DNA of 64,000 nucleotides, from the NCBI GenBank assembly GCA_000091205.1, contig AP006500.2. One strand, 5' to 3'. This DNA comes from Cyanidioschyzon merolae. Lineage: Eukaryota. Every line of letters starts with the position of its first letter. Position 1 is the stretch's first letter. Positions 13,378 to 58,514 of this stretch are shown here, piece after piece. The notes beneath the pieces were generated by a model, which saw only the letters and a program-made list of their open reading frames with translations, was not told the origin of the DNA and searched no databases. Position numbers and translations under genes: made by a program.

Positions 13378-16300
13378 ATGGATGAAGCGCTATCAGGTGC
13401 TTTTCTTTGCGTCAAGATAATCAATATCGACTACTACCTCTGGCAGCCGGAACACCTCTCCAGTGATCCAGGCTGGCTCGAGAGGTTTACACCGGCCCAG
13501 CGAGGTCGTTCGCTTCCGGCGGTACGGATCATCGGACGCACTTCAGCGGGTTCTACAGTCTGCCTGCACTTGCACAATACGTTTCCTCGCACGTATGTGC
13601 CATTACCCGAAACCGTCGCACATAATCCTGAGGCTGAACGGCGCTGGACGCAGCGACTCCGGGTTGCGCTGGAACGGGCACTCGAGCAGTTGCACCTGCA
13701 GCAGCGCGACCAGCGACAAGCTCCAGATGCCAACTGGTCTGCAAACCAGCCAGGTTCTGGTGCTGCCACCGAGGCGCCTTCATCAGTCGAGGACGCTGCT
13801 GCTGACCGCTACATTTATGATATCACGATTGAATGGCGTCGCTGCATTTACGGCTTTAAAGCAAACGCACAACGGTTTGCTCGGATTCGGTACATTCATC
13901 CAGCAGAGAGCGCACGTCTCGTGCAGGCACTCGCTAGCGGGATGTTGGCCGCTGTGGACGACGGAACAATGGACCCAGTGTTACCCGCCCGTTTACAGCC
14001 GTACGAGGCACACCTGCCATACGTGCTGCAGGTCATGGCAGACTACGGCCTAGCCGGGTTTGGGTGTATCGGACTTTGCAGTGGTCGTTTTCGTCCACCG
14101 CTGGCTTCGCCGCGCGATGCTGCCAGTGAAGATGCTGATCATGGCATGCAAGCACGACACAGCGCCAGCTTGGTCGACAACCTTCCACCGGACATGGTCT
14201 GGAACGTGCCCGTCAAACGGCAGACCGACTGTCACCTAGAGGTGGATGTGTGGTTACCCAGGGATCTGCATCCAGCACATCTTCACGGTGAGCAGGAACC
14301 AACTGATCTGGAGCGCCACGTTCCGTCGCTTCGGCTCATCTGGGAGAGCGAACGCAGACGTCGATGCCTCTCTTCGTGGCGCCAGATGTGGGTCCCTATT
14401 GCACACTGTCGACTGGAGCGCGAGGTGCAACCCATGGACACTGGTTTGAAGCAGCGCCTTGGGATGGTGGTTTCTCAGGCACTACGCAAACGTGCAGGAG
14501 CAGGGAATCGGCAACATCAAGAACGGAGGAACGCAATCGCCCTGAACGATGAAACGAGCCAAGCTGATGATCTCGCCAGTGCGCTTGCAGCTCAGTTTGG
14601 CTATGCAGTTGAATCCAGCACTGCAGAGCGCCTTCATCCAGAGTCGGATTTGGAGGATGAAGTGCTCTGGAACTGGATGGAGCAGAACTACCGAACTGGA
14701 GTGGGTGCAGCGAACGGTCAGCCGGTGGACACTTCCTTTGCATCAGCGTACGCACTGGACACATCCGTTTACGAAGACGAAGAGCAGCCCGTGGATGAAG
14801 TCGCTACCCAGAAGGAATGCGCAGACATTCTGGAATGTTCGCTGCCTTTGAATGAAACACCAGGGCTAGGGGCGGAGACGGCAAAGGTGGCAACCTCGCC
14901 GGCGTCATTGGTGCATCGTCAAGACACGGAGCTGGGACTCAGCCCGCCTTGTTCCCCGTCGGTCGCCCCAAGTAGGACGCCTGTTCCAGAGTCCGTGTTG
15001 GCTTCTGCATCGGAACTACAGCCTGGTCACGAATCGGAGGCGGTTCAAGCACAGGCGTCGACGACGTCGAGGCCCCGACAGGCGAGCTGGTGTCTGGCGG
15101 CTTTCCATCTCGAGCGATCAAACGTATCGCCAGCGAATTGGTTCATGATTCCAGATCAGCACCCGCCTTTTCCCTTCAAGTCAGAATGGGGCGTTGCTCA
15201 GCAGAAACCCTTTTACAGCGCCATTGAGGACAAAGCTTTCACGACAAGCGGGTCGAGCGTACGCTGGTTTCCGCAGACGCCTCTTTGGCGAGAGGTCGCC
15301 TGTCGGGCTTTCAGTTCCGACTCGGCGGCGGATGCTGCTGGCCTCCAAACCTGGCGGACACCGCTGAGCTTGCCGCCTTTGCCACAGCACATCGAGCGAA
15401 TTGAACGGTTTCGAAAGCGAAGCAGGCTCCTGGGAGCATCAAGAAAGGTCATTGAGGTGCGGATGGATAGTTACGGTCGCGAGGTGCGCACTGTAGCGGT
15501 GCTCGCAGCAGCGAAGCATGCGGTTTCGAATTCAGTAACCGTAACAGAAGATGCACTGGCCAATGCGAGGCCGGCTAGCGTCGGCATCAAGGCGGAAACT
15601 GCACCGCGGTCGTGCCGCTCACCAAGGAGCATTGAGCTTGGAACTAGTCCAAAAGCCTGGCGCTCTCCATGGACCAGGGCGTCCGAGCTTGTCGACGCCC
15701 CGGAGTCCCGAAGCGTGGCGATAGAGACCCCAGCGTCCGTTGATTCCGTGCAACAAGGAGCGCCTCGTGCGCATCGCGAAGAGGAGCTACCCGCTTTGCC
15801 CGCTGATCAAGCGTATGGCGCTGCAAGCGCAGCTGCACCTGGCCCCATGGAGGCAGCGTGCAGTAGCGAGAACGGTAGCGCGTCCAAATGGGTGTCCCCC
15901 GAGTTGTTGTCAGCAAGCAGCTCTGCGGATTCTCAGCACACTGAATGGAAAGCAACGTCGGACGTTGACGCACACCGAACGACCGCCCTACCCACGCAAA
16001 CGGATCGTAACTGGCAACTGCATGGAGTGCAAGCGTCGCTCGATGCCTATGATACGCGGGTGCATTCGAGCTCGGCACATGCATCAGAAGTGCGCTCCAC
16101 ACGTAGCCCAGTACTGGATCCGTCACCGTACCCAAATTCGGACCCGAGTCTAGCACAATCATCAGAGGCGCGCTGCACGAACAGCCAAGTGCTGGATCCG
16201 TTACCACACCCAGACTCGGACCTGACGCTTCGTCGTCCAGCCAGAGAGCCGCTATCGTCGGCGGCAGCGCAACGATGTCGCACGTTCAGCGACGAAACTG

Positions 16301-19300
16301 GTGCCATGGACCCGCTCCCAGACACGGTTGCTGAACTCGAAGACGACGAAGCACAACTGGTGCCGCTCGTTCGACCGGCTTCGCCTCGTTACGACGAGCC
16401 GTCCGAGTTCTGGAGCGACGCTCCGCATGCTGCGCCCGCTTTCTCCAGCGCTGCGATACGATCGTTGAGAACGGATCGCGAGAAACGCTCCCGGGGGCGA
16501 CTCTCGGATATCACGGGCCCATCACAGATATCCAGCGGCAGAGACTCCTCGGGGATTAGTGGAGAGCCCGCACCACTTGAGCCGCTGGCGCTTCACCATC
16601 AGTACGGCACCGAAACCTTTCGAGTACTAGCCATAGAGTCACTCTCGATCAATCGTCGAGAGCAGCGCCCTGACGCTCTTCAGGATCCGCTGGCTGCAAT
16701 CGGACTCGTCTTCCGGGGCGATGACTCCGATGCCGATCGTCATATCATGCTCGTGAACAGCGCTTTACGCACAAACACTGGAGACGATGCGAGTGCTGCG
16801 CTTACCGAGCGGACGGCGCTCGGCCTGGTGCCAACCACGGGATACACGTTGCGGCCTACTCGAGTCGTGGTGCTGGGCTCGGAAGCGGCGCTGCTGCGGC
16901 AACTTGCGCTGCTCTGTCGTCATCTGGACCCGGATATCCTGGTATCGTATTCGTTGCGCGATGGAGGGATCGGTTATCTGCTGCAGCGAGCAGGCGTTCT
17001 GGGTTATGACTTGGCTTCGGGGCTGTCTCGGGTAGCACTCGGCGTTCATGACCCGAAAACCGAGCGGCAGTGGAGCCTGTCGATGCACCCGTGGGAGACG
17101 GATACTGCCTCCGGTGGTATCCGCCTGCTGGGTCGATACGTTCTGGACGTATGGCGGATCATGCAATCGGAGGTCAAGCTGTCGAACTACACGTTCTATC
17201 GTGTTGTGGAGGAGATTCTCGGACGCCGGATGCCCCGCTTACCGTGGTCTACCCAACGAGACTGGTTCACGCGGGGTACCGCCGCCGACTGTCGCCGAGC
17301 CCTCGAACTGGTTTTGTTTCGCGCTGCCTGGACGCTGGACCTCCTTGAAGCGCTGGATATCCTCGGACGCTCGGCCGAGATGGCCACCAGCTACGGCATC
17401 GACCTGTTATCTGTGTTTCTTCGGGGCAGTCAGTATCGAGTGGAGAGTCTGATGGCGCGACTCGCGCACGCCCAGGGGTACGTGCTGGTCTCGCCTACTG
17501 CTGCACAGGTCCGATGTCAACCGGCAACGGCCTTCATTCCGCTCGTTATGGAGCCCGAAGCCCGCTACTACAGCGATCCGGTCCTGGTGCTAGACTTTCA
17601 GTCGCTTTACCCGTCGATGATCATCGCCCACAACATCTGCTTTTCAACCTGTCTGGGGCGCGTCCTGCTCGATAGCGAAAGCGACTGGTGCACTTTTGCA
17701 AGCGGCATTCCGCGCGTGTTCGGTGTGCTGGAAGCGTACAGCCCCGACTGGATCGGTCTCGTAGAGGCGCTCGCAACAGACGCAACACCGGACGTGGAAG
17801 CGTTGCTAACGGTGCTTCCGAACCAGACAGTTTTCGTGAAGCCTCGGGTACGGCATGGCATCTTGCCGCTGATGCTACGAGAGATACTGGAAACGCGGAT
17901 GATGCTCAAAGGCGGCATGGAGGCCATCGAGAAGCAACACCGCACCGCACCGGTACCCGAAGCGGAACGTCTTCGCTTACAGGCCATCTATCGAATGCTG
18001 AATGCTCGTCAGTTTGCGATGAAGTATATCGCCAATGTGACATATGGGTATACATCTGCGTCGTTTTCGGGACGCATGCCCTGTGCAGAGATCGCCGACG
18101 CGATCGTCAGTGCCGGTCGGGAGGCCATGGAGCGCATCGTAGCCACCGTGGAGCGCCTCTGGGGAGCATCGCATGGAGCACGGGTCGTCTATGGCGATAC
18201 GGACTCTATTTTTGTGCTGGTGCCGGGCGCTTCTCGTGAAGTCGCCTTTCAGCTGGGTCGTGCCATGGCGGAGCAGTGCAGTGCGCTATTTCCAGACCCG
18301 GTCCGACTCAAGCTCGAAAAGGTATACAGCCGTTCGTTGCTGCTGGCGAAGAAGCGCTATGTTGGTTGGGCGTACGAGTCAGAGAACCAGCTGATGGGAA
18401 TGCTTGATGCAAAGGGTATCGAGACGGTTCGGCGCGACTCGTGTGGTCTAGTTCAGAAGATTCTCGAGCGCGCGCTGCGCTTACTCTTCACCGGTGATCA
18501 GGATCTATCGCCCATCAGACGCTATGTGCAGCGGCAACTTCAGCGAGTCCTTCAGAATCGCTTCGATTTTCGGGATGCTATCTTTTTCAAAGAGGTTCAA
18601 CTGGGTCGTTACAAACCCGGCTACGAACCGCCTGCAGCGCTCGTTGCCCTGCGACAGCTGGATCAGGATCCAGCAGCAGTGCCGGCGTTTCGGGAACGTG
18701 TCCCTTACGTGGTAATCTATGGAGAGCCCGGAAGTACGCTGCGCGAACTCGTCGTGGACCCGGGGCAGTTTCTAGAAGCGCGGCGACAAGGGCGCATCCT
18801 TCGCTTGAACACGCAATACTATGTGCGAAAGCAGATCTTACCGGCTTTGGAGCGCTGCTTTTCGCTGATGGGTGTGGATGTTTTCAGTTGGTTCCAGCAG
18901 GTGCCTCGAGTTGCGTACCGTGCTCCACACAGTCGGGGCGTTCCGCTTGGAGCGCACCAGAAAAGCCGCATAGAGCACTACCTTCCCGGTTTCTGCGCCG
19001 TATGTGGTGAGAGCTGTGCCCCACAAACAGAGGTTTGTCGTGTCTGCCTCACACGCATTCCTGATAGCCTCGCGATCGTCCAGCGGAAATTGCACACTGC
19101 ACAGCAGCGTCTCTTTCGTCTTCAGGAGCTCTGCCTACGTTGCATTGGCGAAGGTATCACCGCAAGCGAATGCAGGGATCGCCCGGGCGAGCCATTAAGC
19201 GCAGGTGCTTGTTTGGCGCCGGAGCAGCACCATCAGCACCAATCGTGTTGGACGCAATGCTGGTATCCGCCTTGTGCACATATAGAATGTGCGCTGCTTG

Positions 19301-19368
19301 TAGAGCGAGACAAGGCCTCTTTGACGACCGCCACATACATGCATGCTTTGGGGGAACTCTCTGGCTAG
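13378..19368 (+). CDS. REV3: DNA polymerase zeta catalytic subunit (REV3), B-family polymerase. 1996 aa, no intron.
   Basis: The N-terminus VKIINIDYYL...AVRIIGRTSAGSTVCLHLHNTFPRTYVPL matches the REV3L N-terminal domain. The Pol B motifs are LVLDFQSLYPSMIIAHNICFSTCLG (motif A), KxxxNxxYG (ANVTYGYTSAS), YGDTDSIFV (motif C) and KKRYVGW. C-terminal CysA/CysB metal-binding clusters are present (CAVCGESC...CRVC and CLRC...C). A long Ser/Ala/Pro-rich insert sits between the N-terminal and polymerase domains. Confidence 0.92.
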   Translation: MDEALSGAFLCVKIINIDYYLWQPEHLSSDPGWLERFTPAQRGRSLPAVRIIGRTSAGSTVCLHLHNTFPRTYVPLPETVAHNPEAERRWTQRLRVALERALEQLHLQQRDQRQAPDANWSANQPGSGAATEAPSSVEDAAADRYIYDITIEWRRCIYGFKANAQRFARIRYIHPAESARLVQALASGMLAAVDDGTMDPVLPARLQPYEAHLPYVLQVMADYGLAGFGCIGLCSGRFRPPLASPRDAASEDADHGMQARHSASLVDNLPPDMVWNVPVKRQTDCHLEVDVWLPRDLHPAHLHGEQEPTDLERHVPSLRLIWESERRRRCLSSWRQMWVPIAHCRLEREVQPMDTGLKQRLGMVVSQALRKRAGAGNRQHQERRNAIALNDETSQADDLASALAAQFGYAVESSTAERLHPESDLEDEVLWNWMEQNYRTGVGAANGQPVDTSFASAYALDTSVYEDEEQPVDEVATQKECADILECSLPLNETPGLGAETAKVATSPASLVHRQDTELGLSPPCSPSVAPSRTPVPESVLASASELQPGHESEAVQAQASTTSRPRQASWCLAAFHLERSNVSPANWFMIPDQHPPFPFKSEWGVAQQKPFYSAIEDKAFTTSGSSVRWFPQTPLWREVACRAFSSDSAADAAGLQTWRTPLSLPPLPQHIERIERFRKRSRLLGASRKVIEVRMDSYGREVRTVAVLAAAKHAVSNSVTVTEDALANARPASVGIKAETAPRSCRSPRSIELGTSPKAWRSPWTRASELVDAPESRSVAIETPASVDSVQQGAPRAHREEELPALPADQAYGAASAAAPGPMEAACSSENGSASKWVSPELLSASSSADSQHTEWKATSDVDAHRTTALPTQTDRNWQLHGVQASLDAYDTRVHSSSAHASEVRSTRSPVLDPSPYPNSDPSLAQSSEARCTNSQVLDPLPHPDSDLTLRRPAREPLSSAAAQRCRTFSDETGAMDPLPDTVAELEDDEAQLVPLVRPASPRYDEPSEFWSDAPHAAPAFSSAAIRSLRTDREKRSRGRLSDITGPSQISSGRDSSGISGEPAPLEPLALHHQYGTETFRVLAIESLSINRREQRPDALQDPLAAIGLVFRGDDSDADRHIMLVNSALRTNTGDDASAALTERTALGLVPTTGYTLRPTRVVVLGSEAALLRQLALLCRHLDPDILVSYSLRDGGIGYLLQRAGVLGYDLASGLSRVALGVHDPKTERQWSLSMHPWETDTASGGIRLLGRYVLDVWRIMQSEVKLSNYTFYRVVEEILGRRMPRLPWSTQRDWFTRGTAADCRRALELVLFRAAWTLDLLEALDILGRSAEMATSYGIDLLSVFLRGSQYRVESLMARLAHAQGYVLVSPTAAQVRCQPATAFIPLVMEPEARYYSDPVLVLDFQSLYPSMIIAHNICFSTCLGRVLLDSESDWCTFASGIPRVFGVLEAYSPDWIGLVEALATDATPDVEALLTVLPNQTVFVKPRVRHGILPLMLREILETRMMLKGGMEAIEKQHRTAPVPEAERLRLQAIYRMLNARQFAMKYIANVTYGYTSASFSGRMPCAEIADAIVSAGREAMERIVATVERLWGASHGARVVYGDTDSIFVLVPGASREVAFQLGRAMAEQCSALFPDPVRLKLEKVYSRSLLLAKKRYVGWAYESENQLMGMLDAKGIETVRRDSCGLVQKILERALRLLFTGDQDLSPIRRYVQRQLQRVLQNRFDFRDAIFFKEVQLGRYKPGYEPPAALVALRQLDQDPAAVPAFRERVPYVVIYGEPGSTLRELVVDPGQFLEARRQGRILRLNTQYYVRKQILPALERCFSLMGVDVFSWFQQVPRVAYRAPHSRGVPLGAHQKSRIEHYLPGFCAVCGESCAPQTEVCRVCLTRIPDSLAIVQRKLHTAQQRLFRLQELCLRCIGEGITASECRDRPGEPLSAGACLAPEQHHQHQSCWTQCWYPPCAHIECALLVERDKASLTTATYMHALGELSG

Positions 19369-20431
19369 TGCGTAAGAGGAAACGGGAATAAGCGCACATC
19401 GAGATATCGATCATGTTGGTGGCGCTTCTCCTCAGTCCGATCGAGGTGACAAGACTTTCTGGCTAACGTGTGCGCTTCCGTTGGGGTCATTGCGCTTTCA
19501 GCGTACGAACTTGGTGCAGATGGCGTCGGGTTCCGGGCACACTCCGAGGTATTCCGTCAATGCGCGAGCGCCGGGGCGTCCATCGGCTGCTGGCGAGATA
19601 CGGCGAACGGTCCTCGAATCCGAAAGATAACAGTTACGGGGCTATTGGTATGTGTGTGTATGTGTGTCGCCGCGTATCTTGCTTGCTTGGGCGCGAGACT
19701 TTGGAGGCCACAGCACCACTGCTCGCACATGGGCGACTCTTCACACACGAATGCATTTCGCAGCAGAATCGATCATCGTCGGACGCGTAGCGAGGACTCG
19801 CGCGTACAGCTGCACGTTTTCGCCGACGATAGCGCGCATGAGGCGCCGAATAGGAGCTCGTTACGAACCGTAATACCCGCCACGCCCAGCAACCGCATGC
19901 CAGGGCGATATATCGCTTCCGCTTGTTTAGGCCTGGCACTCATCAGCGTATACGTCCAAAGTGTCATCCGTTGCCAAGGCTGGATACCAGCGTCAGCGAA
20001 GCGCTTGGTCTCGATCAGCGGGCATTGCATAGCGCATGAGCTCTCCGGATGCGGATCCAAGCCTCGCACAACGCCCCGCGACCACTTGTATATAAAGCGT
20101 TTGCTATAGCTCGCGAAAGGAAGCGCTTTTGCTGGTCATCGTGACACTCACGGTAACCACAACAACAGCATAGCGTGCCCGTCAATCAGAGTCTCAGCGC
20201 GTCTGGGAATCATACGCATGAACCGTGGTTCTTCTGGTTCGTCTCGAGTCCATGCGCAGCCCATAGTCGGATGATATTCATGGACAGTCATGCTTTCCAT
20301 GGACACACGAGTGTCGATCATTGGTATCGACACCGTTGCCGACACAACTGGTGCGTCCCCATTTGCATCCATGCTCGCGTTGTATCCGCCGAAAGGCGCC
20401 CTGCGCTCGAGCGCGCTGGACACGTACCCTG

Positions 20432-20770
20432 TCGCGGGAAACGTCCTAATCTTGAAAGTACTGGCAATGAATGTACTACACTGTATTATTTCGTACTAAA
20501 AGGACATCAGTGTCCATCGCGGGAAAAGTCCTGATCTAGAATGTACGAACATCTAATGGATTAGAATGGATTATTTCGTACTAAAAGGACATCAGTGTCC
20601 ATCGCGGCACACGCCGCAATCTAGAAAGTACGAACATCTAATGGATTAGAATGGATTATTTCGTACTAAAAGGACATCAGTGTCCATCGCGGGAAACGTC
20701 CTGATCTAGAATGTACGAGCATCTAATGAACTAGAATGGATTATTTCGTACTAAAAGGACATCAGTGTCC
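20432..20770. repeat. 85-bp tandem minisatellite, about 4 copies (one variant copy), with a GGACATCAGTGTCC inverted-repeat core. It sits immediately upstream of the following gene.
   Basis: Unit tcgcgggaaa(a/c)gtcctgatctagaatgtacga(a/g)catctaatggattagaatggattatttcgtactaaaaggacatcagtgtcca. Copies start near 20432 (degenerate), 20517, 20602 (variant middle) and 20687. Confidence 0.8.
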
Positions 20771-20902
20771 GTTGTTGGCCAACTTCGTGCCTACGTCATC
20801 GTGTGTCGCAATAGCGAGCATACGCATGCGTTTGTTTCTCAGGCCGCTCGGGGACGTTTTCAGGGCCTGCGCTCTTGTCAACCTCTTTATGTTGCTTCAT
20901 AT

Positions 20903-22273
20903 ATGTTTCAAGGACCTGCACGAACATTTATAGGCACGTATGGGTGCACAAGGTATCAAAGGCTCCGAGCGCTCGCCGCATGCCGATCTGAGACTCGAGC
21001 AGAGCGGCGTGCGACGCAGCGGTTCGATGCAGCTGCTTCCGGTGCGCGACGGGCAAGCAAGCTTGGACACCGGCGGCGCCGCCTAGTGAAAACGCATGGC
21101 GCCTTGGCGATCCAGAGCTCACTCATCCAGCCAAATAACTTCTGGGGTGTCTGGAGCTTGCTCATAGGCTCAGCAACAGCTGGCGTCTGGTTCGAGCGTA
21201 CACGCATCGGAGCGGCGCTCTCGGCACCGCTTCTCTCGTCGCTGCTGGGACTGGCGTTGGTCAACTTGGGCATCTTGCCGGCATCTGCGCCCGCATACCA
21301 GACAGTGAGTAAGGTCGTCGTGCCGCTTGCGATTCCGCTCCTGCTCTTCAACGCGGATATGCGTCGCGTCTTTCGAGAGACAGGTCGACTCTTGAAAGCG
21401 TTTTGGATCGGTGCATTGGCGACAGTGATCGGCACCTTCGTGGCGTGTGCCCTTGTTCCACCTGGAGCAATCGGTGCGGATAATCTTTATCGAGCAGCCG
21501 TGGCTCTGAATGCACGCCACATCGGAGGCTCCGTGAACCTCGTCGCTGTCGCGGAAGCCACCCGAATGGAGCCTGCATTGGTCTCCGCCTTGCTTGCCGC
21601 GGATAATATCGTGCTCGCTATTTACTTTCCGCTTATTTTCGCCTTGTCCAGTTCAGCAGCGAGACCAGATGCGGACGCGAAGCAGGCCGTTGACGGAAAC
21701 CGCAGAGAAACCGACCTGGCAATGCTGTCACTTGCACTTGCGGTTGCGTTCGCGCTATGCTTCCTGAGCTTTGGGATCGCATGCTGGCTGCATCTGGAGT
21801 CCTTCGTGCTGCCGCTCCTGACGCTAATGATCGTCTCACTGGCAACGCTTTTTCCGCGACAGTTTCAACCACTCCAGACCGCTGGTACCATTCTGGGTAT
21901 GTTTTTTATGCAAGTTTTCTTTGCGGTGACGGGTGCGTTAGGCTCCATCGGTGCCGTTATACGCACTGCACCTCTCTTGCTCCTTCTGAGTGTGGTTCAA
22001 GTAGGCGTTCATTTAATGGTGATGCTCATTTTAGGTAGAATTTTAGGTATTTCAAGGGACGATCTCATGCTGGCGTCCAACGCGAACATTGGCGGCCCGA
22101 GTACCGCTGCGGGCATGGCCGCATCCAAGCGCTGGACCGCTCTCATCGTACCTGCTATTCTTATCGGTGTCTGTGGTTATGCTATCGCAACTTTCGTTTC
22201 ATTGGGTTGCTTGCCGTTACTCCCATATTTTGTCCGTGTGTTGCCCTGGGCGTCCGCACTCCAACGCCCATAG
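20903..22273 (+). CDS. Polytopic membrane protein, DUF819-like (plastid-envelope/bacterial membrane family), with an Arg/Ala/Ser-rich N-terminal presequence.
   Basis: The track ORF starts at a GTG at 20765. The first ATG is 20903 (MFQGPARTF...). There are about 10 predicted hydrophobic helices, with segments such as SAPLLSSLLGLALVNLGILPASAPAYQTVSKVVVPLAIPLLLFNADMRRVFRETGRLL and NANIGGPSTAAGMAASKRW. Family assignment is from memory, not from a search. Confidence 0.45.
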   Translation: MFQGPARTFIGTYGCTRYQRLRALAACRSETRAERRATQRFDAAASGARRASKLGHRRRRLVKTHGALAIQSSLIQPNNFWGVWSLLIGSATAGVWFERTRIGAALSAPLLSSLLGLALVNLGILPASAPAYQTVSKVVVPLAIPLLLFNADMRRVFRETGRLLKAFWIGALATVIGTFVACALVPPGAIGADNLYRAAVALNARHIGGSVNLVAVAEATRMEPALVSALLAADNIVLAIYFPLIFALSSSAARPDADAKQAVDGNRRETDLAMLSLALAVAFALCFLSFGIACWLHLESFVLPLLTLMIVSLATLFPRQFQPLQTAGTILGMFFMQVFFAVTGALGSIGAVIRTAPLLLLLSVVQVGVHLMVMLILGRILGISRDDLMLASNANIGGPSTAAGMAASKRWTALIVPAILIGVCGYAIATFVSLGCLPLLPYFVRVLPWASALQRP

Positions 22274-25519: not shown

Positions 25520-27353
25520 TTCAACGGGCGTATACAGGTGCAGCGCGTCTCTGAGAGGACGCTGAACGTATTTAGAAGCGATCTACGTAAACAAGCGGCT
25601 AGGATACAGCTGATTGTACCAGAACTGGGAAGTGCAGTCCCTGAAGACGATGGTTGAAGCCTCCGGTGCGGCAGTAAAAACTGTTGGTGTCGTTCTCTTC
25701 AGGTCGCTTGAGAGAGGGCGCCTTCTTGAGCCCCACCTAGTAACCTGCCACAGGTACCCGAAGCAGGCTCTACAGCTTGCAAAAGGAAGGACTTGCCCAA
25801 TATCCAAAGTAAACGGCGCCTATCCTGAGAAGCGCTTCGGTCTCTGCGTCGTTTGCGGCTTGGAAATCACGTGGAAGGGTAAAGTATAACGGTGCCGGGC
25901 GAGGCGAGGCCAGGCCAGGTCAGGCCAAGCCATTGTTTGCGTTATCGATGCTTCGCGCTATTGTGCCGGTGCGGAAAACAGGTGACGTGTACTGCAACCT
26001 GGTCAGCATTGGGTGCCTTCATGCCGCGTAACGTTCCCGGCTAGGCTGAGCCTTTCATGAACTGGGAAAAAGTAGCGATTGACTCGCTCGGAGCCGCTGC
26101 CGCTGGCAAGGCCTCCACAGCGGAGTTCTCTGGGAGTTCACCGGACTCGCTGTGTCTGCCGTCGACAACTCGAGACGCTTTGGGGTTGATCAGCCTGACG
26201 TGCGCCTATATTTATGAAGCGTACGCCCCAAGCGAATAGGTGAAGCAACTTGACACGGAGCAGCGGTATGTGCGGTCAACTGCAGCCGGTCGCGTGGGGC
26301 TTTGGTTGGGCGCTCGTTCGCTTAGCGCGTTTCTGCTGGATATTTCGAGAGATCCGCTGCAACCGTTACGTGAAAAGTAATCCAAAGAAATTGAGTCCGA
26401 GTTCTTCGAAGGCAGGAAGCGTCGGTCGGACGTGACCGGTGGCCTCGGTACTCGCCGTCCCATGTGCAAGTGTACGCTCTAGTTTCCTTTCATGAGGGCA
26501 GCATGCGATCCCGACGGTGACCTATAACGCCGTGAAGATACCGTCTGTGTGTGCTGGACCAGATTCCATGCTTCGAGAAAACACTGACTCAGGACCTGCT
26601 GCCTGCCGTGCAGTTACGATAGTCTGACCTGGAGCTTGCCCCGGTTTTGTTATCATGAAGAGAGGTACGCTCTGAAAGTTCCCAACCGCAGCTTCGTGAG
26701 TAGAGGCAGCAACCGGCGACACAGTCTATTGTATCAAAGCACCACAATAGGATCGCGAGCTAAGTTTCTAGGGTAGCCCTTTCGCAGAAACTTTTGTGCA
26801 CGATCTTATGTGCGCCTGTTTGTACGTCAAGCGAGGCATTCGCGCGATGCCCAGTGCCAGCACTGGCGTGTCGCGAAGACACTAGCGCAACGACAAATCA
26901 CGCCGTTGACTCGTTGATCGAGCACGGTTGCTGTGGACAGAGCGCTGATGTGATAATGAAAAGCTCGGAGCGCATACTGCTTCGCGCCCGCTGGAATAGC
27001 AACGAGCGGTGCTTTTGCACTCCAGTCGGAAACCGGGAATCGAAAAAAAGCCTCTTCCCAGCGGTCTCTCCAACGTACAGAGCGCTCCGCAAAGACGCTT
27101 TCGGGGATCCCCGGCCGCCACATAGACAGGAAGGCGCGCTCGCTTCAATGCATCTCATTCTCTGTGATGCGGAATGCGTGCATACAAGTATCTATCGAGC
27201 CGTCGAGGCAAAAGAAAGGGCATGACATGTACAGCGTAACAGATTCATTCTAATAGACAGTAGATCAATATAACCAGCGTTCTGAGATCAGCAGCTTGCC
27301 CCCTGTGACTTTGCACCTCCTATCGAAGCATAAACCGCTCTGTCGGTGACGCG

Positions 27354-27400
27354 ATGTCGCTGGTTCGATCACGATGTCGCTGGTTCGATCACGATGTCGC
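27354..27400. repeat. 20-bp direct tandem repeat, 2.35 copies (atgtcgctggttcgatcacg).
   Basis: Seen directly in the sequence at 27354-27373, 27374-27393 and a partial copy at 27394-27400, about 320 bp upstream of the 27722 ATG. Confidence 0.8.
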
Positions 27401-27721: not shown

Positions 27722-29440
27722 ATGCATATGAGCCAAAGTTTATTGTCCACGATAACTGACCTGGCGTTGAACAAAACAGATACTGGGAAAAAAGGTCAAC
27801 GTGCAACAACGAGCTCGCGGATAAGCGGTGTCGTGCACGACGACCGACGACACGAGTGGGTTGTTCCGCAGCTCCGACGCTACGCTTCTGCCACGCCACA
27901 GCGACTGCGATATATAGAACACGACAAGTCTGAACCCGATATAGGGTTTATTTTGTCACTGAACGCACGCGAGTCGGCGTTCTATTCCGGTACGAGAACA
28001 CGCAAGCGTTGCAGCGTTCTGGTTCGACGACTTCAATTCACTTTGGCGTGTGCCTCGGATGGACGCTCCGATAAGCCACGTCGGTATTTCCGTTCGAAGA
28101 AAGTGTCTCCAGTGAATCCCGCTGCAATACAGCCGCAGACGCCGGGACATGAAACTGGGTCGTCGCGAAAGAACGCTTTTGCGGCACGATCGCAGCCCCG
28201 TGATGCACCGCAAGGTGTCTTCGAGACAATTCGTCGATGGCTTCAGAAGCACGAACTAGAATCCAGCAGTCTCTGCATCCGGCTTCTTGATGACTATCGG
28301 CACGTTGACGAGTTGCTTCAGTGCTTCTGGAATGCCGTCGAGGATGTGGCCGGGGGCTCCTCTGCCGACGTCCTGCTGGCGCTGCCGCCGCTCCCGTCAT
28401 CCCTTGCCAGTGCCTTGATCGGTCACCTTCGAGAGTGCGCTGACGTCGGTGATGTCTTTGGCTCGCACGTGTTTCTCAACGCGTACGGACCCGATGAGGG
28501 AGCACCTCGGTTCTGTTTGCGGTTACGAAAAGGCTCGTCAGCTGCTGGTGGTGTCGGCGCTACGTCCCAGGATGATCCTTTTTGGTCCGATGACGAGGAC
28601 GACTTTTTGGACCCGCGTTTCGCCGAACTTTTGCGCGCATCACGCGAAGAAGATGCGGGAGAAACGTCACCCGTAGCCGTGGGGCAAGATGCTGCCCCGA
28701 CCGGCATCACGACCAATGACGACCTCGATACCAGACAGAAGCTGCAGTCCAGCGAGCTGTCCCTACCGTCGGATGAAGTGATTCTAGCAGAGAGCCGCGC
28801 TTGGGTCCAGCATATGATCGTCGATGCTGCTGTATGTCCTTTCATGATGTCCGCCGTGCGTGGTGGCTTACCAGCGGGCCAGGTACGCTATGCGGTATCG
28901 CACGCGACAACACCTGAGCGAATCTATCGTGAGTTTTGGAACGAAGTCGCCCTGCTTCGACGGACCCCTTCGAAGGACGTCTCCACCACGTTGCTGGTAC
29001 TGCCAGAACTGGTACAGGGCATAGAAGGCTTTGATGCCATTACCACGCCGCTGAGTGCAGCGCTTGAAGCGCTCCAACTCGACGCCTTCATTCAACTGGT
29101 GTTCTTTCATCCAAAGTATGCATTTCGCGACGGTCGGGATCGCATCAATACGCAAGGTTGCACGGGCGGACACGCCGCGAACTACGTGCGCCGCTCACCC
29201 TACCCCATGATCAATATTCTGCGAACAGAGCAAGTACAGCGTGGGCAGCGGGGCATCCCAACGGAACTCGTTTATCGACGGAATGAGTCATTGATGCGCA
29301 CCATTGGAGCCGAACGACTTGAACAAATGCTTCATCGACGATCTTGGGAGGAGCTTCTCCAACTCGTCCAGGACAATCGTCCCTATGCGGATCTCGAGGA
29401 AGCAGTCAAGCGTGTACGCGATCAGTTTGCGAGTTCCTGA
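27722..29440 (+). CDS. Hypothetical 572-aa protein. The C-terminal ~180 aa resemble the DUF1415 family.
   Basis: ATG start. The C-terminal region contains VCPFMMSAV, FFHPKYAFRDGRDRINTQG and NYVRRSPYPMINILRTEQ. The N-terminal half is low-complexity and basic. The DUF1415 resemblance is from memory. Confidence 0.4.
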   Translation: MHMSQSLLSTITDLALNKTDTGKKGQRATTSSRISGVVHDDRRHEWVVPQLRRYASATPQRLRYIEHDKSEPDIGFILSLNARESAFYSGTRTRKRCSVLVRRLQFTLACASDGRSDKPRRYFRSKKVSPVNPAAIQPQTPGHETGSSRKNAFAARSQPRDAPQGVFETIRRWLQKHELESSSLCIRLLDDYRHVDELLQCFWNAVEDVAGGSSADVLLALPPLPSSLASALIGHLRECADVGDVFGSHVFLNAYGPDEGAPRFCLRLRKGSSAAGGVGATSQDDPFWSDDEDDFLDPRFAELLRASREEDAGETSPVAVGQDAAPTGITTNDDLDTRQKLQSSELSLPSDEVILAESRAWVQHMIVDAAVCPFMMSAVRGGLPAGQVRYAVSHATTPERIYREFWNEVALLRRTPSKDVSTTLLVLPELVQGIEGFDAITTPLSAALEALQLDAFIQLVFFHPKYAFRDGRDRINTQGCTGGHAANYVRRSPYPMINILRTEQVQRGQRGIPTELVYRRNESLMRTIGAERLEQMLHRRSWEELLQLVQDNRPYADLEEAVKRVRDQFASS

Positions 29441-29509
29441 ATAGCGTCCTAACTCGCGCTGTAGTTGCGGCAATGAGACATGGCACAAAGACACGTTTCC
29501 GCAGATGCG

Positions 29510-29624
29510 GTGCCTCGTCTGCGGATACGTAAGGAGGCAATGCTCGGGCATTGGCGATTGTCCAAGGCACCATCGGGCGTTTCCGCGGTTACAGTGCCTC
29601 GTCTGCGGATACGTAAGGAGGCAA
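29510..29624. repeat. Two copies of a 31-bp direct repeat (gtgcctcgtctgcggatacgtaaggaggcaa) spaced 84 bp apart, in the 250-bp convergent 3' intergenic region.
   Basis: Copies at 29510-29540 and 29594-29624. They lie between the stop of the 27722 gene (29440) and the stop of the minus-strand TypA gene (29691). Confidence 0.8.
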
Positions 29625-44814: not shown

Positions 44815-46152
44815 GCATGGACAGGACTCTGCGAGGCGATAGCAGGGATGGAAAAGGAGACGCGGCTGGTACCATGGACGCGCGTGCTGCTAGCCCCGCA
44901 AGTGCATCGTTGGGGCACATACACACACCGTTCACGGCGGGTTCGCGAGCAGGCACACGGCCCAGTGTATACTCGGGTTCTGGTCCAAGACGAGGATGCA
45001 CAAAGTCGTGGTATGCGCCGGGGTGACGTATTCGCTTCTACGAAAAAGCTTGCACTCTATGGTTTTTCGAGCAGATTGCCCCTGCGTTGGAACCAGTAGT
45101 CGACTGATGGCTCTGCCGCGACGCCCTTTTCGAGTCGCTGCGAAGCAGGCAACAAGTTGCATCACAGGGCGGTGCGCTTTACTGCTGGCCGGACAGATAG
45201 GTAGAGGGTGTTTGTTACGGACAGCTTCTCATTCATGGGTAAACAGAGTGACGTACGGTGGAAAAGCCGGCTCCGTAGACACAAAAGGAGAGACCTCCAT
45301 CTTCCATTTTCTCGTTTCACAGCGTAGCACATGCGGTGAACAACCTCTGGCGGCGCTGGATGAGGCGAGCACTCTGAAAAGTGCACGCGCTGTGCACTGC
45401 CGGTAGCCTGAACGCCAAATGCCGACTCTACTGGCAGCCGCGAGCACCTCTGGTCTGGGCCTCGTCGATAGTGCAGGCGTGTCCAGAGTATACACACACA
45501 CACACATACAGAGAGCGAGAGAGAACCACGCTAGGTGGCTATACTCGTGGTCGACGCGCTGGAACAGGCTGGGCGACGAAGCACGAACTGTCGCATGGAT
45601 TTCGGTTCAAGACCTGCAGAGTCGACCGGACAAAAGCAACCCAGTAAACCTCATTCATTGCCTGTACCTCGGTATGCTTGTGGGCGTTTCGTTGGTGACT
45701 CGTGATCTTCCTGGACCTTCGACCCCGTTGTGTGGCGCTTAAGCTTGTTATCTGCCTCTGCGACCAGGCAGCGAGAAGCTTTTCGCGATGCTGGTAACAT
45801 GTGACGTTGCTGCCGGCTTTGTTCGGCATGTTCAGTTGCACCTTGAACACTGCAAGCTTCAAGAGATGGCGGAAATGAAACCGTGCAACCTCCGGGACGT
45901 GATCACCCTATGGAATCCGCAGAGAAGTGGCCTGTTGTTGCAGCTTCTCGCGCAGACCAGAGGTCAGCATGCACTGGGCGCTTGTCTGCGCGCGTACATG
46001 CATCTGCACTGCTACCTCTACGCGAACGATAAGGACTGGTCCGGTTCTCGTAGGACGTAAAAAGTTTCTGTGGCGAGGCAGTGGTGGCCTCCTCCGTGGT
46101 CATCGGCAATGTCCGCGGATCTCCGAAAGTCCAGACAGAATCCGGGATCTTG

Positions 46153-46411
46153 CACCGTCATCAAACATCTGGACGCATTCATGAAAACTCTGGCAGAAAC
46201 GGGGATCTTGCACCGTCATCAAACATCTGAACGTATTGATGAAAACTCTGGCAGAAACGGGGATCTTGCACCGTCATCAAACATCTGAACGCATTGATGA
46301 AAACTCTGGCAGAAACGGGGATCTTGCACCGTCATCAAACATCTGAACGCATTGATGAAAACTCTGGCAGAAACGGGGATCTTGCACCGTCATCATCACC
46401 ACCATCATCAC
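46153..46411. repeat. 59-bp tandem minisatellite, about 4.4 copies. Each unit holds a TCATCAA/TTGATGA hairpin. The array ends in a (CAT/CAC)7 run.
   Basis: Unit gggatcttgcaccgtcatcaaacatctgaacgcattgatgaaaactctggcagaaacg, with copies starting at 46153, 46212, 46271, 46330 and a partial copy at 46389. His-codon run at 46391-46411. It lies in the convergent intergenic region. Confidence 0.8.

Positions 46412-56270: not shown

Positions 56271-58514
<2,244 letters not shown>

What the first reader, a model, noticed from the sequence alone, without database searches (positions are those of the whole stretch)
20432..20770. 85-bp minisatellite with a palindromic core abutting a membrane-protein gene
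Four copies of an 85-bp unit are present. Each contains the inverted repeat GGACATCAGTGTCC and an internal ATGGATTA duplication. One copy carries a replaced middle segment (ggcacacgccgca). The array ends about 130 bp before the ATG of the DUF819-like gene. The array could act as a copy-number-variable promoter element or a binding-site array for a palindrome-recognising factor.
Basis: seen in the sequence. Interest (0 to 1): 0.5.

Follow-up and report, generated by a model that had tools for sequence, protein, structure and literature searches.

The report
Variable 85-bp minisatellite upstream of DUF819
This is a real, single-locus tandem repeat of an 85-bp AT-rich unit just upstream of a membrane-transporter gene in the red alga Cyanidioschyzon merolae; its copy number differs between natural strains, as it does for other minisatellites nearby, and nothing shows that it does a job.

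Summary
Tandem Repeats Finder reports 4.0 copies of an 85-bp unit at 20432-20770. Each copy carries GGACATCAGTGTCC, and the array ends 132 bp before the ATG (20903) of a DUF819 gene. That protein is 100% identical to Cyanidioschyzon merolae 10D XP_005538406.1, so the window is C. merolae or a near-identical strain.

The array is locus-specific. A 23-nt core found only this locus in the metagenome collection and nothing in viral contigs. It is also lineage-specific: the syntenic spacers of Cyanidiococcus and another cyanidialean do not align.

It is the most variable part of the locus among ~99%-identical haplotypes. Two assemblies have 4 copies and two have 2 copies. The two 2-copy haplotypes carry non-orthologous second units. 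Four further assemblies break inside the array. Two other tandem repeats in the window also differ by one unit between assemblies.

I found no Rfam hit, no base-pair covariation and no second occurrence of the palindrome motif in the window. An E2F-like 8-mer in three units is at chance frequency.

Best reading: an ordinary hypervariable promoter-proximal minisatellite. A regulatory role is possible but untested. One oddity remains: the copy-3 patch rebuilds a perfect hairpin.

The parts
20432..20770 (.). 85-bp x 4.0 minisatellite array; 40.7% GC, in a genome that is 56% GC
   Evidence: TRF score 503; GC content; present in independent assemblies L007, L001/L008 and L015
20432..20516 (.). Unit 1, the most diverged unit (12 differences from unit 2, clustered at unit positions 22-53); identical in all four haplotypes that span it
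20517..20601 (.). Unit 2; retained as the second unit in the 2-copy haplotype L001
20602..20686 (.). Unit 3, which carries the substituted patch
20608..20618 (.). Copy-3 patch: six substitutions turn CGGGA-AACG-TCCTG (a 5-bp stem only if a G.T/G.U pair is counted) into the perfect hairpin GCGGC-ACAC-GCCGC, shifted by 1 nt, and destroy the E2F-like 8-mer. An intermediate form (GGCACACGCCCTA, 3-bp stem) exists in L015 and L016
20687..20770 (.). Unit 4 (84 nt; the last base is replaced by the flank)
20418..20431 (.). Degenerate partial unit end in the 5' flank (GGACACGTACCCTG, compare GGACATCAGTGTCCA). This is the likely short direct repeat at which the first duplication arose
   Evidence: read from the sequence; the origin is inferred
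20502..20515 (.). Inverted repeat GGACA-TCAG-TGTCC, first of four; the others are at 20587-20600, 20672-20685 and 20757-20770. Invariant in all 16 complete or partial units seen
20434..20441 (-). E2F-like 8-mer TTTCCCGC, also at 20519-20526 and 20689-20696; absent from unit 3. Occurs at chance frequency in the window
20903..22273 (+). DUF819 (CPA/AT-superfamily) membrane protein gene, 456 aa, 100% identical to C. merolae 10D XP_005538406.1. The N-terminus is Arg/Ala/Ser-rich and presequence-like
   Evidence: superfamily placement from PMC8396727
13378..19368 (+). Upstream gene: REV3 (DNA polymerase zeta catalytic subunit). Its stop codon lies 1,063 bp before the array

Best explanation
The array is an ordinary, young, single-locus minisatellite (VNTR) in the 5' intergenic region of the Cyanidioschyzon merolae DUF819 gene. 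It most likely arose by tandem duplication of an AT-rich ~85-bp segment bounded by a short GGACA-containing direct repeat. It has since expanded, contracted and exchanged units in register, by replication slippage and/or unequal recombination within the 30-nt 3' part of the unit that is nearly identical in every copy. The short inverted repeats in each unit are properties of the duplicated sequence and may add to its instability. Any effect on DUF819 transcription, through spacing, AT-richness or chance factor sites, would be incidental. Shown here: the tandem structure, the single-locus distribution, the lineage restriction, the hypervariability, and the same behaviour in neighbouring minisatellites. 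Inferred: the mutational mechanism and the absence of a dedicated function.
For: 1. Tandem structure in perfect 85-bp register with no indels.
2. Single locus. The 23-nt core found only two metagenome contigs, both at this locus, and no viral contig. There is no second copy in the 64-kb window.
3. Lineage-specific. The syntenic REV3-DUF819 spacers of Cyanidiococcus yangmingshanensis (L002) and of a second cyanidialean (L003) align only in the coding flanks. The Cyanidiococcus spacer is about 496 bp, against 1,534 bp here.
4. Hypervariable.
   - The window and L007 have 4 units; L001 and L015 have 2. The differences are exact multiples of 85 bp.
   - L001 and L015 are 99.83% identical over 7.5 kb, but 9 of their 13 mismatches lie in the 85-bp second unit.
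   - Four contigs from four samples start inside the array.
5. Generic behaviour. The 58-bp array at 46136-46395 lacks one unit in L009-L011, and three contigs end at it. The 84-bp duplication at 29494-29624 has 2 copies in the window and 3 in L001. A 46-bp x 6.2 array follows the DUF819 stop in L003. TRF finds four arrays with period >=20 in this 64-kb window.
6. No sign of an encoded product or dedicated site.
   - No Rfam hit, even at E<=10.
   - 0 of 22 predicted pairs show a compensatory change.
   - The H2 stem is broken in unit 1, in L7_4 and in the L015/L016 units.
   - GGACA-N4-TGTCC is absent elsewhere in the window.
   - TTTSSCGC occurs 12 times against 15.7 expected.
   - ORFs overlapping the spacer have no Pfam match.
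7. Between the two 4-copy haplotypes the array differs at 3 of 339 positions (0.9%). That is about the same as the 0.73% of the surrounding 5.3 kb, so there is no extra constraint.
Against: Variation within the unit is uneven. 21 of 53 columns vary at positions 1-53, against 1 of 31 at positions 54-84. Fisher p = 2e-4, or 0.014 without unit 1, but the substitutions are not independent events. The GGACA-TCAG-TGTCC hairpin is invariant in all 16 units. This could reflect constraint on the 3' core, but homogenisation by recombination there would give the same pattern.

The copy-3 patch rebuilds a perfect 5-bp hairpin where a weaker one stood. Only 9 of the 729 alternative substitution sets at those six positions would do so.

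The array lies where a proximal promoter is expected, 132 bp from the ATG.

The 2-copy alleles come from short-read metagenome assemblies, so collapse cannot be excluded for any one contig. However, L001 has more copies than the window at the 29.5-kb repeat.
Confidence: 0.75

Rival explanations
1. The array is a functional cis-regulatory element. Each unit would be a module carrying a dimeric-factor site (GGACA-N4-TGTCC) and possibly an E2F-type site (TTTCCCGC). Unit number would then tune transcription of the adjacent DUF819 transporter gene, giving hot-spring populations heritable expression variants, as described for promoter tandem repeats in yeast.
For: - Position: the array ends 132 bp upstream of the ATG, and both flanking genes are on the + strand, so it lies in the DUF819 5' region.
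- It is an AT-rich island, 40.7% GC against 56%.
- The 3' 31 nt of the unit, including the inverted repeat, are almost invariant across 16 units from 6 or more assemblies, while the rest varies.
- A consensus E2F-like 8-mer is present in three of the four units.
- Copy number varies between strains.
Against: - No homologous sequence or array exists in the orthologous spacer of two related cyanidialeans, so the gene is expressed without it.
- The motif is not found upstream of any other gene in the window.
- The E2F-like 8-mer is at or below chance frequency, and it is lost in unit 3 and in the second unit of L015.
- Between haplotypes the array diverges as fast as its surroundings.
- Minisatellites in non-promoter (3'-3') spacers of the same window vary in the same way.
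- No expression or binding data could be consulted.
Confidence: 0.16
2. The array is a tandem cluster of small structured RNA genes. Each unit would give one ~85-nt RNA with three hairpins, read from the + strand and processed from a precursor, in the manner of snoRNA clusters.
For: - Each unit folds into three hairpins. The folding z-score reaches -4.3 for unit 3 on the + strand, and the whole region gives z = -3.9 as DNA.
- Hairpin 1 needs a G.U pair that exists only on the + strand.
- The copy-3 patch replaces hairpin 1 with a different, perfect hairpin (nominal chance 1.2%).
- A-to-G changes at unit position 33 keep pairing as G.U on the + strand.
Against: - No Rfam family matches, even at E<=10.
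- No pair shows a compensatory change, and the counts equal the shuffled controls.
- Folding z-scores of units 1, 2 and 4 are unremarkable (-0.35, -2.0, -1.4).
- The H2 stem is broken in several units.
- I saw no C/D or H/ACA box arrangement on either strand. The only CUGA overlaps the only UGAUG-like motif, on the minus strand (read from the sequence).
- The replacement hairpin is shifted by one nucleotide, so it is not true covariation.
- The array is absent from related species.
Confidence: 0.04
3. The array is a fragment or local amplification of a dispersed mobile element (MITE-like or foldback), i.e. a generic genome-wide repeat.
For: The units contain inverted repeats, and the array is AT-rich relative to the genome.
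Against: - The core 23-mer hit only this locus in a collection that holds >100-kb contigs of this organism, and no viral contig.
- There is no other copy in the window or in the fetched loci.
- The finished genome is reported to hold only 26 class I and 8 class II elements (PMC1955436).
- The P-MITE survey abstract names Cyanidioschyzon as the one species in which no MITEs were found (PMC3964958, listed).
- Caveat: the scan required an exact 23-mer, and allelic variants of that core exist.
Confidence: 0.03

Closest known systems
Minisatellites / VNTRs of eukaryotic genomes (units of 10-100 bp, hypervariable by slippage and unequal exchange)
   Same: Head-to-tail units of 85 bp in strict register. 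Alleles differ by whole units. Unit variants are interspersed, and their order differs between otherwise near-identical haplotypes. The array is non-coding and occurs at a single locus.
   Different: The array is very short (2-4 units) and AT-rich, unlike the classical GC-rich human minisatellites. It lies in an unusually repeat-poor 16.5-Mb genome (PMC1955436).
Unstable tandem repeats in promoters that tune expression (yeast promoter repeats, Vinces et al. 2009; human INS-VNTR and MAOA-uVNTR). Cited from my own knowledge; not consulted here.
   Same: The position is immediately upstream of a gene, the sequence is AT-rich, and copy number is polymorphic in natural populations.
   Different: In those cases expression was shown to depend on copy number. 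No expression, nucleosome or binding data exist here, and the TSS is unknown.
Quasi-palindrome correction by template switching (Ripley-type mutations). Cited from my own knowledge.
   Same: A cluster of substitutions converts an imperfect inverted repeat into a perfect one in unit 3. Positions 13-16 become the exact complement of the unchanged positions 3-6.
   Different: Three of the six changes (positions 7, 9 and 17) are not explained by a single switch, and an intermediate allele (L015/L016) indicates at least two steps.
Tandem snoRNA gene clusters
   Same: The unit length (~85 nt) and the tandem arrangement on the same strand as the flanking genes.
   Different: No boxes, no Rfam hit, no covariation and no conservation in relatives.

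Membership tests
Minisatellite / VNTR | Head-to-tail tandem copies of a 10-100 bp unit | tested here: met
   TRF: period 85, 4.0 copies, 87% matches, 0% indels, score 503
Minisatellite / VNTR | Copy number polymorphic between individuals or strains, in whole units | tested here: met
   4 (window), 4 (L007), 2 (L001/L008), 2 (L015); the differences are exactly 170 bp. Caveat: the 2-copy alleles come from short-read assemblies. L001 has more copies than the window at another repeat, which argues against systematic collapse.
Minisatellite / VNTR | Non-coding, with no product of its own | tested here: inconclusive
   Overlapping ORFs have no Pfam match, there is no Rfam hit and no covariation. Transcript data were not available.
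Dispersed repeat / MITE | Many copies at unrelated loci | tested here: not met
   The 23-nt core found 2 metagenome contigs, both at this locus, and 0 viral contigs. There is no other copy in the window or loci. The complete genome itself could not be searched.
Dispersed repeat / MITE | Terminal inverted repeats with target-site duplication | tested here: not met
   Only short internal hairpins were found. No inverted repeat brackets the array or a unit.
Known RNA families (Rfam 15), including snoRNAs | Match to a covariance model | tested here: not met
   0 hits at gathering threshold in the whole window. Within 20000-21200 at E<=10 there were only two chance hits, both outside the array.
Structured RNA (any) | Base pairs maintained by compensatory changes | tested here: not met
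   0 of 22 pairs have a change on both sides, and the counts equal the shuffled control. Power is low: 7 variants at 92% identity.
Regulatory promoter tandem repeat | Located in the promoter of the regulated gene | tested here: inconclusive
   The array ends 132 bp before the annotated ATG and lies 1,063 bp after the stop of the upstream gene. The TSS is not known.
Regulatory promoter tandem repeat | Expression depends on copy number | not testable with these tools
   No expression data for alleles with different unit numbers.
E2F-site cluster | TTTSSCGC sites enriched over background and conserved | tested here: not met
   12 sites in the window against 15.7 expected. The site is lost in unit 3 and in the second unit of L015, and the region is absent in related species.

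The most novel reading that the evidence does not exclude
The 85-bp unit is a self-contained regulatory module: an invariant GGACA-N4-TGTCC dimer site, a TATA-like CTAAAAGG and an E2F-like site. On this reading its number (2, 3 or 4) sets the expression level of a plastid-type DUF819/CPA-AT transporter in different hot-spring populations of C. merolae. That would be the first natural 'evolvable promoter' VNTR described in a red alga. The rebuilt hairpin in unit 3 would then reflect selection for a hairpin or cruciform-forming element rather than mutational chance.
Probability: 0.1. Interest if true: 0.45.

Novelty: new member of a known kind. Interest (0 to 1): 0.17.

Why it matters
The practical value is modest. 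The array is a ready-made, PCR-sized, hypervariable marker for typing Cyanidioschyzon populations that differ by less than 1% elsewhere. It is also a recurrent breakpoint in short-read metagenome assemblies of this alga. C. merolae is genetically tractable by homologous recombination, so the array offers a clean test of whether promoter minisatellite length tunes expression in a minimal eukaryotic genome. Nothing found here suggests a new kind of element.

Tried and rejected
- **Kinetoplastid origin.** Long intronless ORFs suggested it, but genes alternate strands, and the protein hits place the window in Cyanidiophyceae.
- **snoRNA or other small RNA cluster.** Rfam at gathering threshold and at E<=10 gave nothing. 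I saw no box arrangement and no covariation.
- **tRNA-like or permuted tRNA.** ARAGORN found none in the window, and the 4-nt loops do not fit tRNA arms.
- **Dispersed or MITE family.** One metagenome scan and one viral scan found only this locus.
- **Donor for the copy-3 patch.** None in the window.
- **Progenitor single-copy unit in related species.** The spacers are unalignable.
- **Hidden gene in the 1-kb spacer.** Five ORFs, no Pfam match.
- **E2F-site array.** The motif is at chance frequency.
- **Exact-protein look-ups that returned nothing.** The window's 456-aa DUF819, the 554-aa, 213-aa and 814-aa ORFs, and P0126. As a result the 10D chromosome record itself could not be fetched.
- **Literature.** No paper describes this array or interspersed minisatellites in C. 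merolae. Tandem repeats are only bulk-annotated by TRF in Ensembl Plants (PMC11050394).

Full report
**1. The observation**

Tandem Repeats Finder reports one array at exactly 20432-20770. It has period 85, 4.0 copies, 87% matches, no indels and score 503.

The four units are in perfect register. GGACATCAGTGTCC occurs once per unit and nowhere else exactly. The 33-nt 3' part of the unit occurs four times against zero expected.

The array ends at 20770. The only in-frame ATG ahead of the DUF819 domain (Pfam PF05684, E = 4e-76) is at 20903, which is 132 bp downstream.

Three details need correcting:
- The 'palindrome' is a 5-bp inverted repeat around a non-palindromic TCAG.
- The AATGGATTAG duplication is exact only in units 2 and 3.
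- The replaced segment is six substitutions at unit positions 7-17 of unit 3.

**2. The organism and the neighbourhood**

The window has long intronless ORFs on alternating strands, is about 56% GC, and has no tRNA or Rfam hit.

The 456-aa DUF819 protein read from ATG 20903 is 100% identical over its full length to Cyanidioschyzon merolae 10D XP_005538406.1 / BAM82370.1, which lies on a 1,253,087-bp record. The next named relative is Cyanidiococcus yangmingshanensis at 78%. The window is therefore C. merolae, either the finished 10D reference or a near-identical strain. The annotated start agrees with ATG 20903.

Upstream on the same strand is REV3 / DNA polymerase zeta (13378-19368). Downstream on the opposite strand is an 814-aa ORF without Pfam domains. 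The gene order PQ-loop, REV3, DUF819, 808/814-aa gene is conserved in Cyanidiococcus (L002) and in a second cyanidialean seen in metagenomes (L003/L004).

DUF819 is placed in the CPA/AT transporter superfamily (PMC8396727).

**3. Is the unit a dispersed family?**

A 23-nt core shared by all four units was scanned against the metagenome collection. It matched only two contigs, Ga0078972_1000527 (four hits) and Ga0080006_1183218 (two hits). Both are this same locus.

The viral collection gave nothing. BLASTN of the unit against the window and all fetched loci gave no other copy.

There is a caveat. The scan needs an exact match, and I later found allelic units with GTTCT instead of GTACT in that core. 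The scan therefore under-samples alleles and would miss diverged copies. The complete genome could not be searched.

Independent support comes from the literature. The finished genome is reported to contain only 26 class I and 8 class II elements (PMC1955436). The P-MITE survey abstract names Cyanidioschyzon as the one species without MITEs (PMC3964958, listed).

**4. Comparison across species**

The REV3-DUF819 spacers of L002 and L003 align with the window only in the coding flanks. No unit-like sequence is present.

The Cyanidiococcus spacer is about 496 bp, against 1,534 bp here. The array is thus a recent, lineage-specific acquisition, and the gene functions without it in relatives.

**5. 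Comparison across strains**

Several metagenome assemblies hold haplotypes 98.9-99.5% identical to the window.

| Assembly | Identity | Units |
|---|---|---|
| L007 | 99.27% to the window over 5,348 bp, no gaps | 4, same unit order, 3 substitutions in 339 bp |
| L001/L008 | 99.1-99.5% to the window | 2 (unit 1 plus a unit-2 type); exactly 170 bp shorter |
| L015 | 99.83% to L001 | 2 |

In L015 the second unit is a different type. Nine of the 13 mismatches between L015 and L001 over 7,509 bp fall in that 85-bp unit. That is 10.6%, against 0.05% elsewhere. The two '2-copy' alleles are therefore not the same allele. They are either independent contractions or conversions of longer arrays, or differently collapsed assemblies.

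L016 carries at least two non-terminal units of yet another variant. L016-L019, from four different samples, all begin inside the array, at window positions 20640 or 20720.

The array is therefore by far the most variable and least assemblable stretch of the locus.

**6. Is this special to the DUF819 promoter?**

No.
- The 58-bp x 4.5 array at 46136-46395 lies between the 3' ends of convergent genes. It lacks one unit in L009-L011, and three other contigs end at it.
- The 84-bp tandem duplication at 29494-29624 also lies between convergent genes. It has 2 copies in the window and 3 in L001. This also shows that L001 does not systematically collapse repeats.
- L003 has a 46-bp x 6.2 array right after the DUF819 stop, where three contigs end.

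TRF finds four arrays of period >=20 in this 64-kb window. Unit-number variation is thus a generic property of minisatellites in these genomes.

**7. Anatomy of the unit, and tests of function**

Each unit can form three hairpins on the + strand:
- H1, positions 4-17: CGGGA-AACG-UCCUG, with one G.U pair.
- H2, positions 27-65: GTACGAA...TTCGTAC.
- H3, positions 71-84: GGACA-UCAG-UGUCC.

Folding z-scores are unremarkable for units 1, 2 and 4 (-0.35, -2.0, -1.4). Unit 3 is stronger at -4.3.

Counting pairs across seven distinct unit variants gave no compensatory change at any of 22 pairs, and values equal to the shuffled controls. H3 never varies, H1 is paired in only 69% of cells, and H2 is broken in several units.

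Rfam gave no hit at gathering threshold, nor at E<=10 in the array.

GGACA-N4-TGTCC does not recur anywhere else in the window.

Units 1, 2 and 4 carry TTTCCCGC, an E2F consensus, on the minus strand. However, TTTSSCGC occurs 12 times in the window against 15.7 expected. The site is also lost in unit 3 and in the second unit of L015.

ORFs overlapping the spacer have no Pfam match.

Between the two 4-copy haplotypes the array diverges at 0.9%, about the 0.73% of its surroundings. I see no extra constraint.

**8. Two observations that point the other way**

First, variation is uneven. 21 of 53 columns vary at positions 1-53 but only 1 of 31 at positions 54-84. Fisher p = 2e-4, or 0.014 without unit 1. 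The substitutions are clustered and not independent. Homogenisation by recombination within the shared 3' segment would produce the same pattern, so this is only suggestive.

Second, the copy-3 patch converts H1 into a different, perfect hairpin (GCGGC-ACAC-GCCGC), shifted by one nucleotide. Only 9 of the 729 alternative substitution sets at the same six positions would give a Watson-Crick stem of >=5 bp. An intermediate form with a 3-bp stem exists in L015 and L016.

This fits either selection for a hairpin or stepwise quasi-palindrome correction by template switching, a known mutational route (from my own knowledge). It is one post hoc observation, and I leave it unexplained.

**9. Verdict**

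The array is copy-number variable, gene-proximal and not a dispersed family. There is no evidence that it is a binding-site array or a promoter element, and several tests that could have supported this came out negative.

The best explanation (about 0.75) is an ordinary, young, single-locus hypervariable minisatellite that changes by slippage or unequal exchange in register. Rivals:
- A regulatory promoter VNTR, about 0.16.
- A small-RNA cluster, about 0.04.
- A mobile-element fragment, about 0.03.

It is a new member of a well-known kind. Its interest is low, beyond its use as a strain marker and as a tractable test case.

Noticed in passing
window 46136-46395: A 58-bp x 4.5 minisatellite (97% matches) lies between convergent genes. 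Its unit contains a 7-bp inverted repeat (TCATCAA...TTGATGA). Three assemblies (L009-L011) have one unit fewer, and three other contigs (L012-L014) end at or inside it.
   Followed up: partly
window 29494-29624 (L001 18734-18948): An 84-bp-period tandem duplication with a 47-nt conserved core lies between convergent genes. There are 2 copies in the window and 3 in the metagenome haplotype L001.
   Followed up: partly
window 56336-56624: A 45-bp x 6.4 array (91% matches) is flanked by CAG/TAG-type short repeats and a CGG run. Several reading frames stay open through it (15-aa repeats), so it may be coding. It lies just upstream of the ORF at 56760-58514.
   Followed up: no
L003 11179-11494: The related cyanidialean has a 46-bp x 6.2 array (also scored as 92 bp x 3) immediately after the DUF819 stop codon. 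Contigs L004, L005 and L006 all end in it. There is no counterpart in the window or in Cyanidiococcus (L002 has no array scoring >=80).
   Followed up: partly
window 20402-20413 and 20773-20782: Perfect palindromes flank the array on both sides: GCGCTCGAGCGC (12 bp) about 20 bp upstream, and GTTGGCCAAC (10 bp) 3 bp downstream. Their significance is unknown.
   Followed up: no
window 19369-20431: The spacer between REV3 and the array is about 1 kb longer than in Cyanidiococcus. It is GC-normal (56.8%), has no alignable counterpart in relatives, and its ORFs (for example the 213-aa ORF at 19468-20109) have no Pfam match. Its origin is unexplained.
   Followed up: partly
window 20940-21085 and 21096: Out-of-frame ATGs lie just inside the 5' end of the DUF819 coding region, including a 48-codon ORF starting at 20940. 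The DUF819 N-terminus (MFQGPARTF..., Arg/Ala/Ser-rich, Phe at position 2) looks like a red-algal plastid transit peptide. This comes from reading the sequence and was not tested.
   Followed up: no
window 27352-27400: A perfect 20-bp x 2.5 tandem repeat (CGATGTCGCTGGTTCGATCA) lies just upstream of the ORF at 27722-29440.
   Followed up: no
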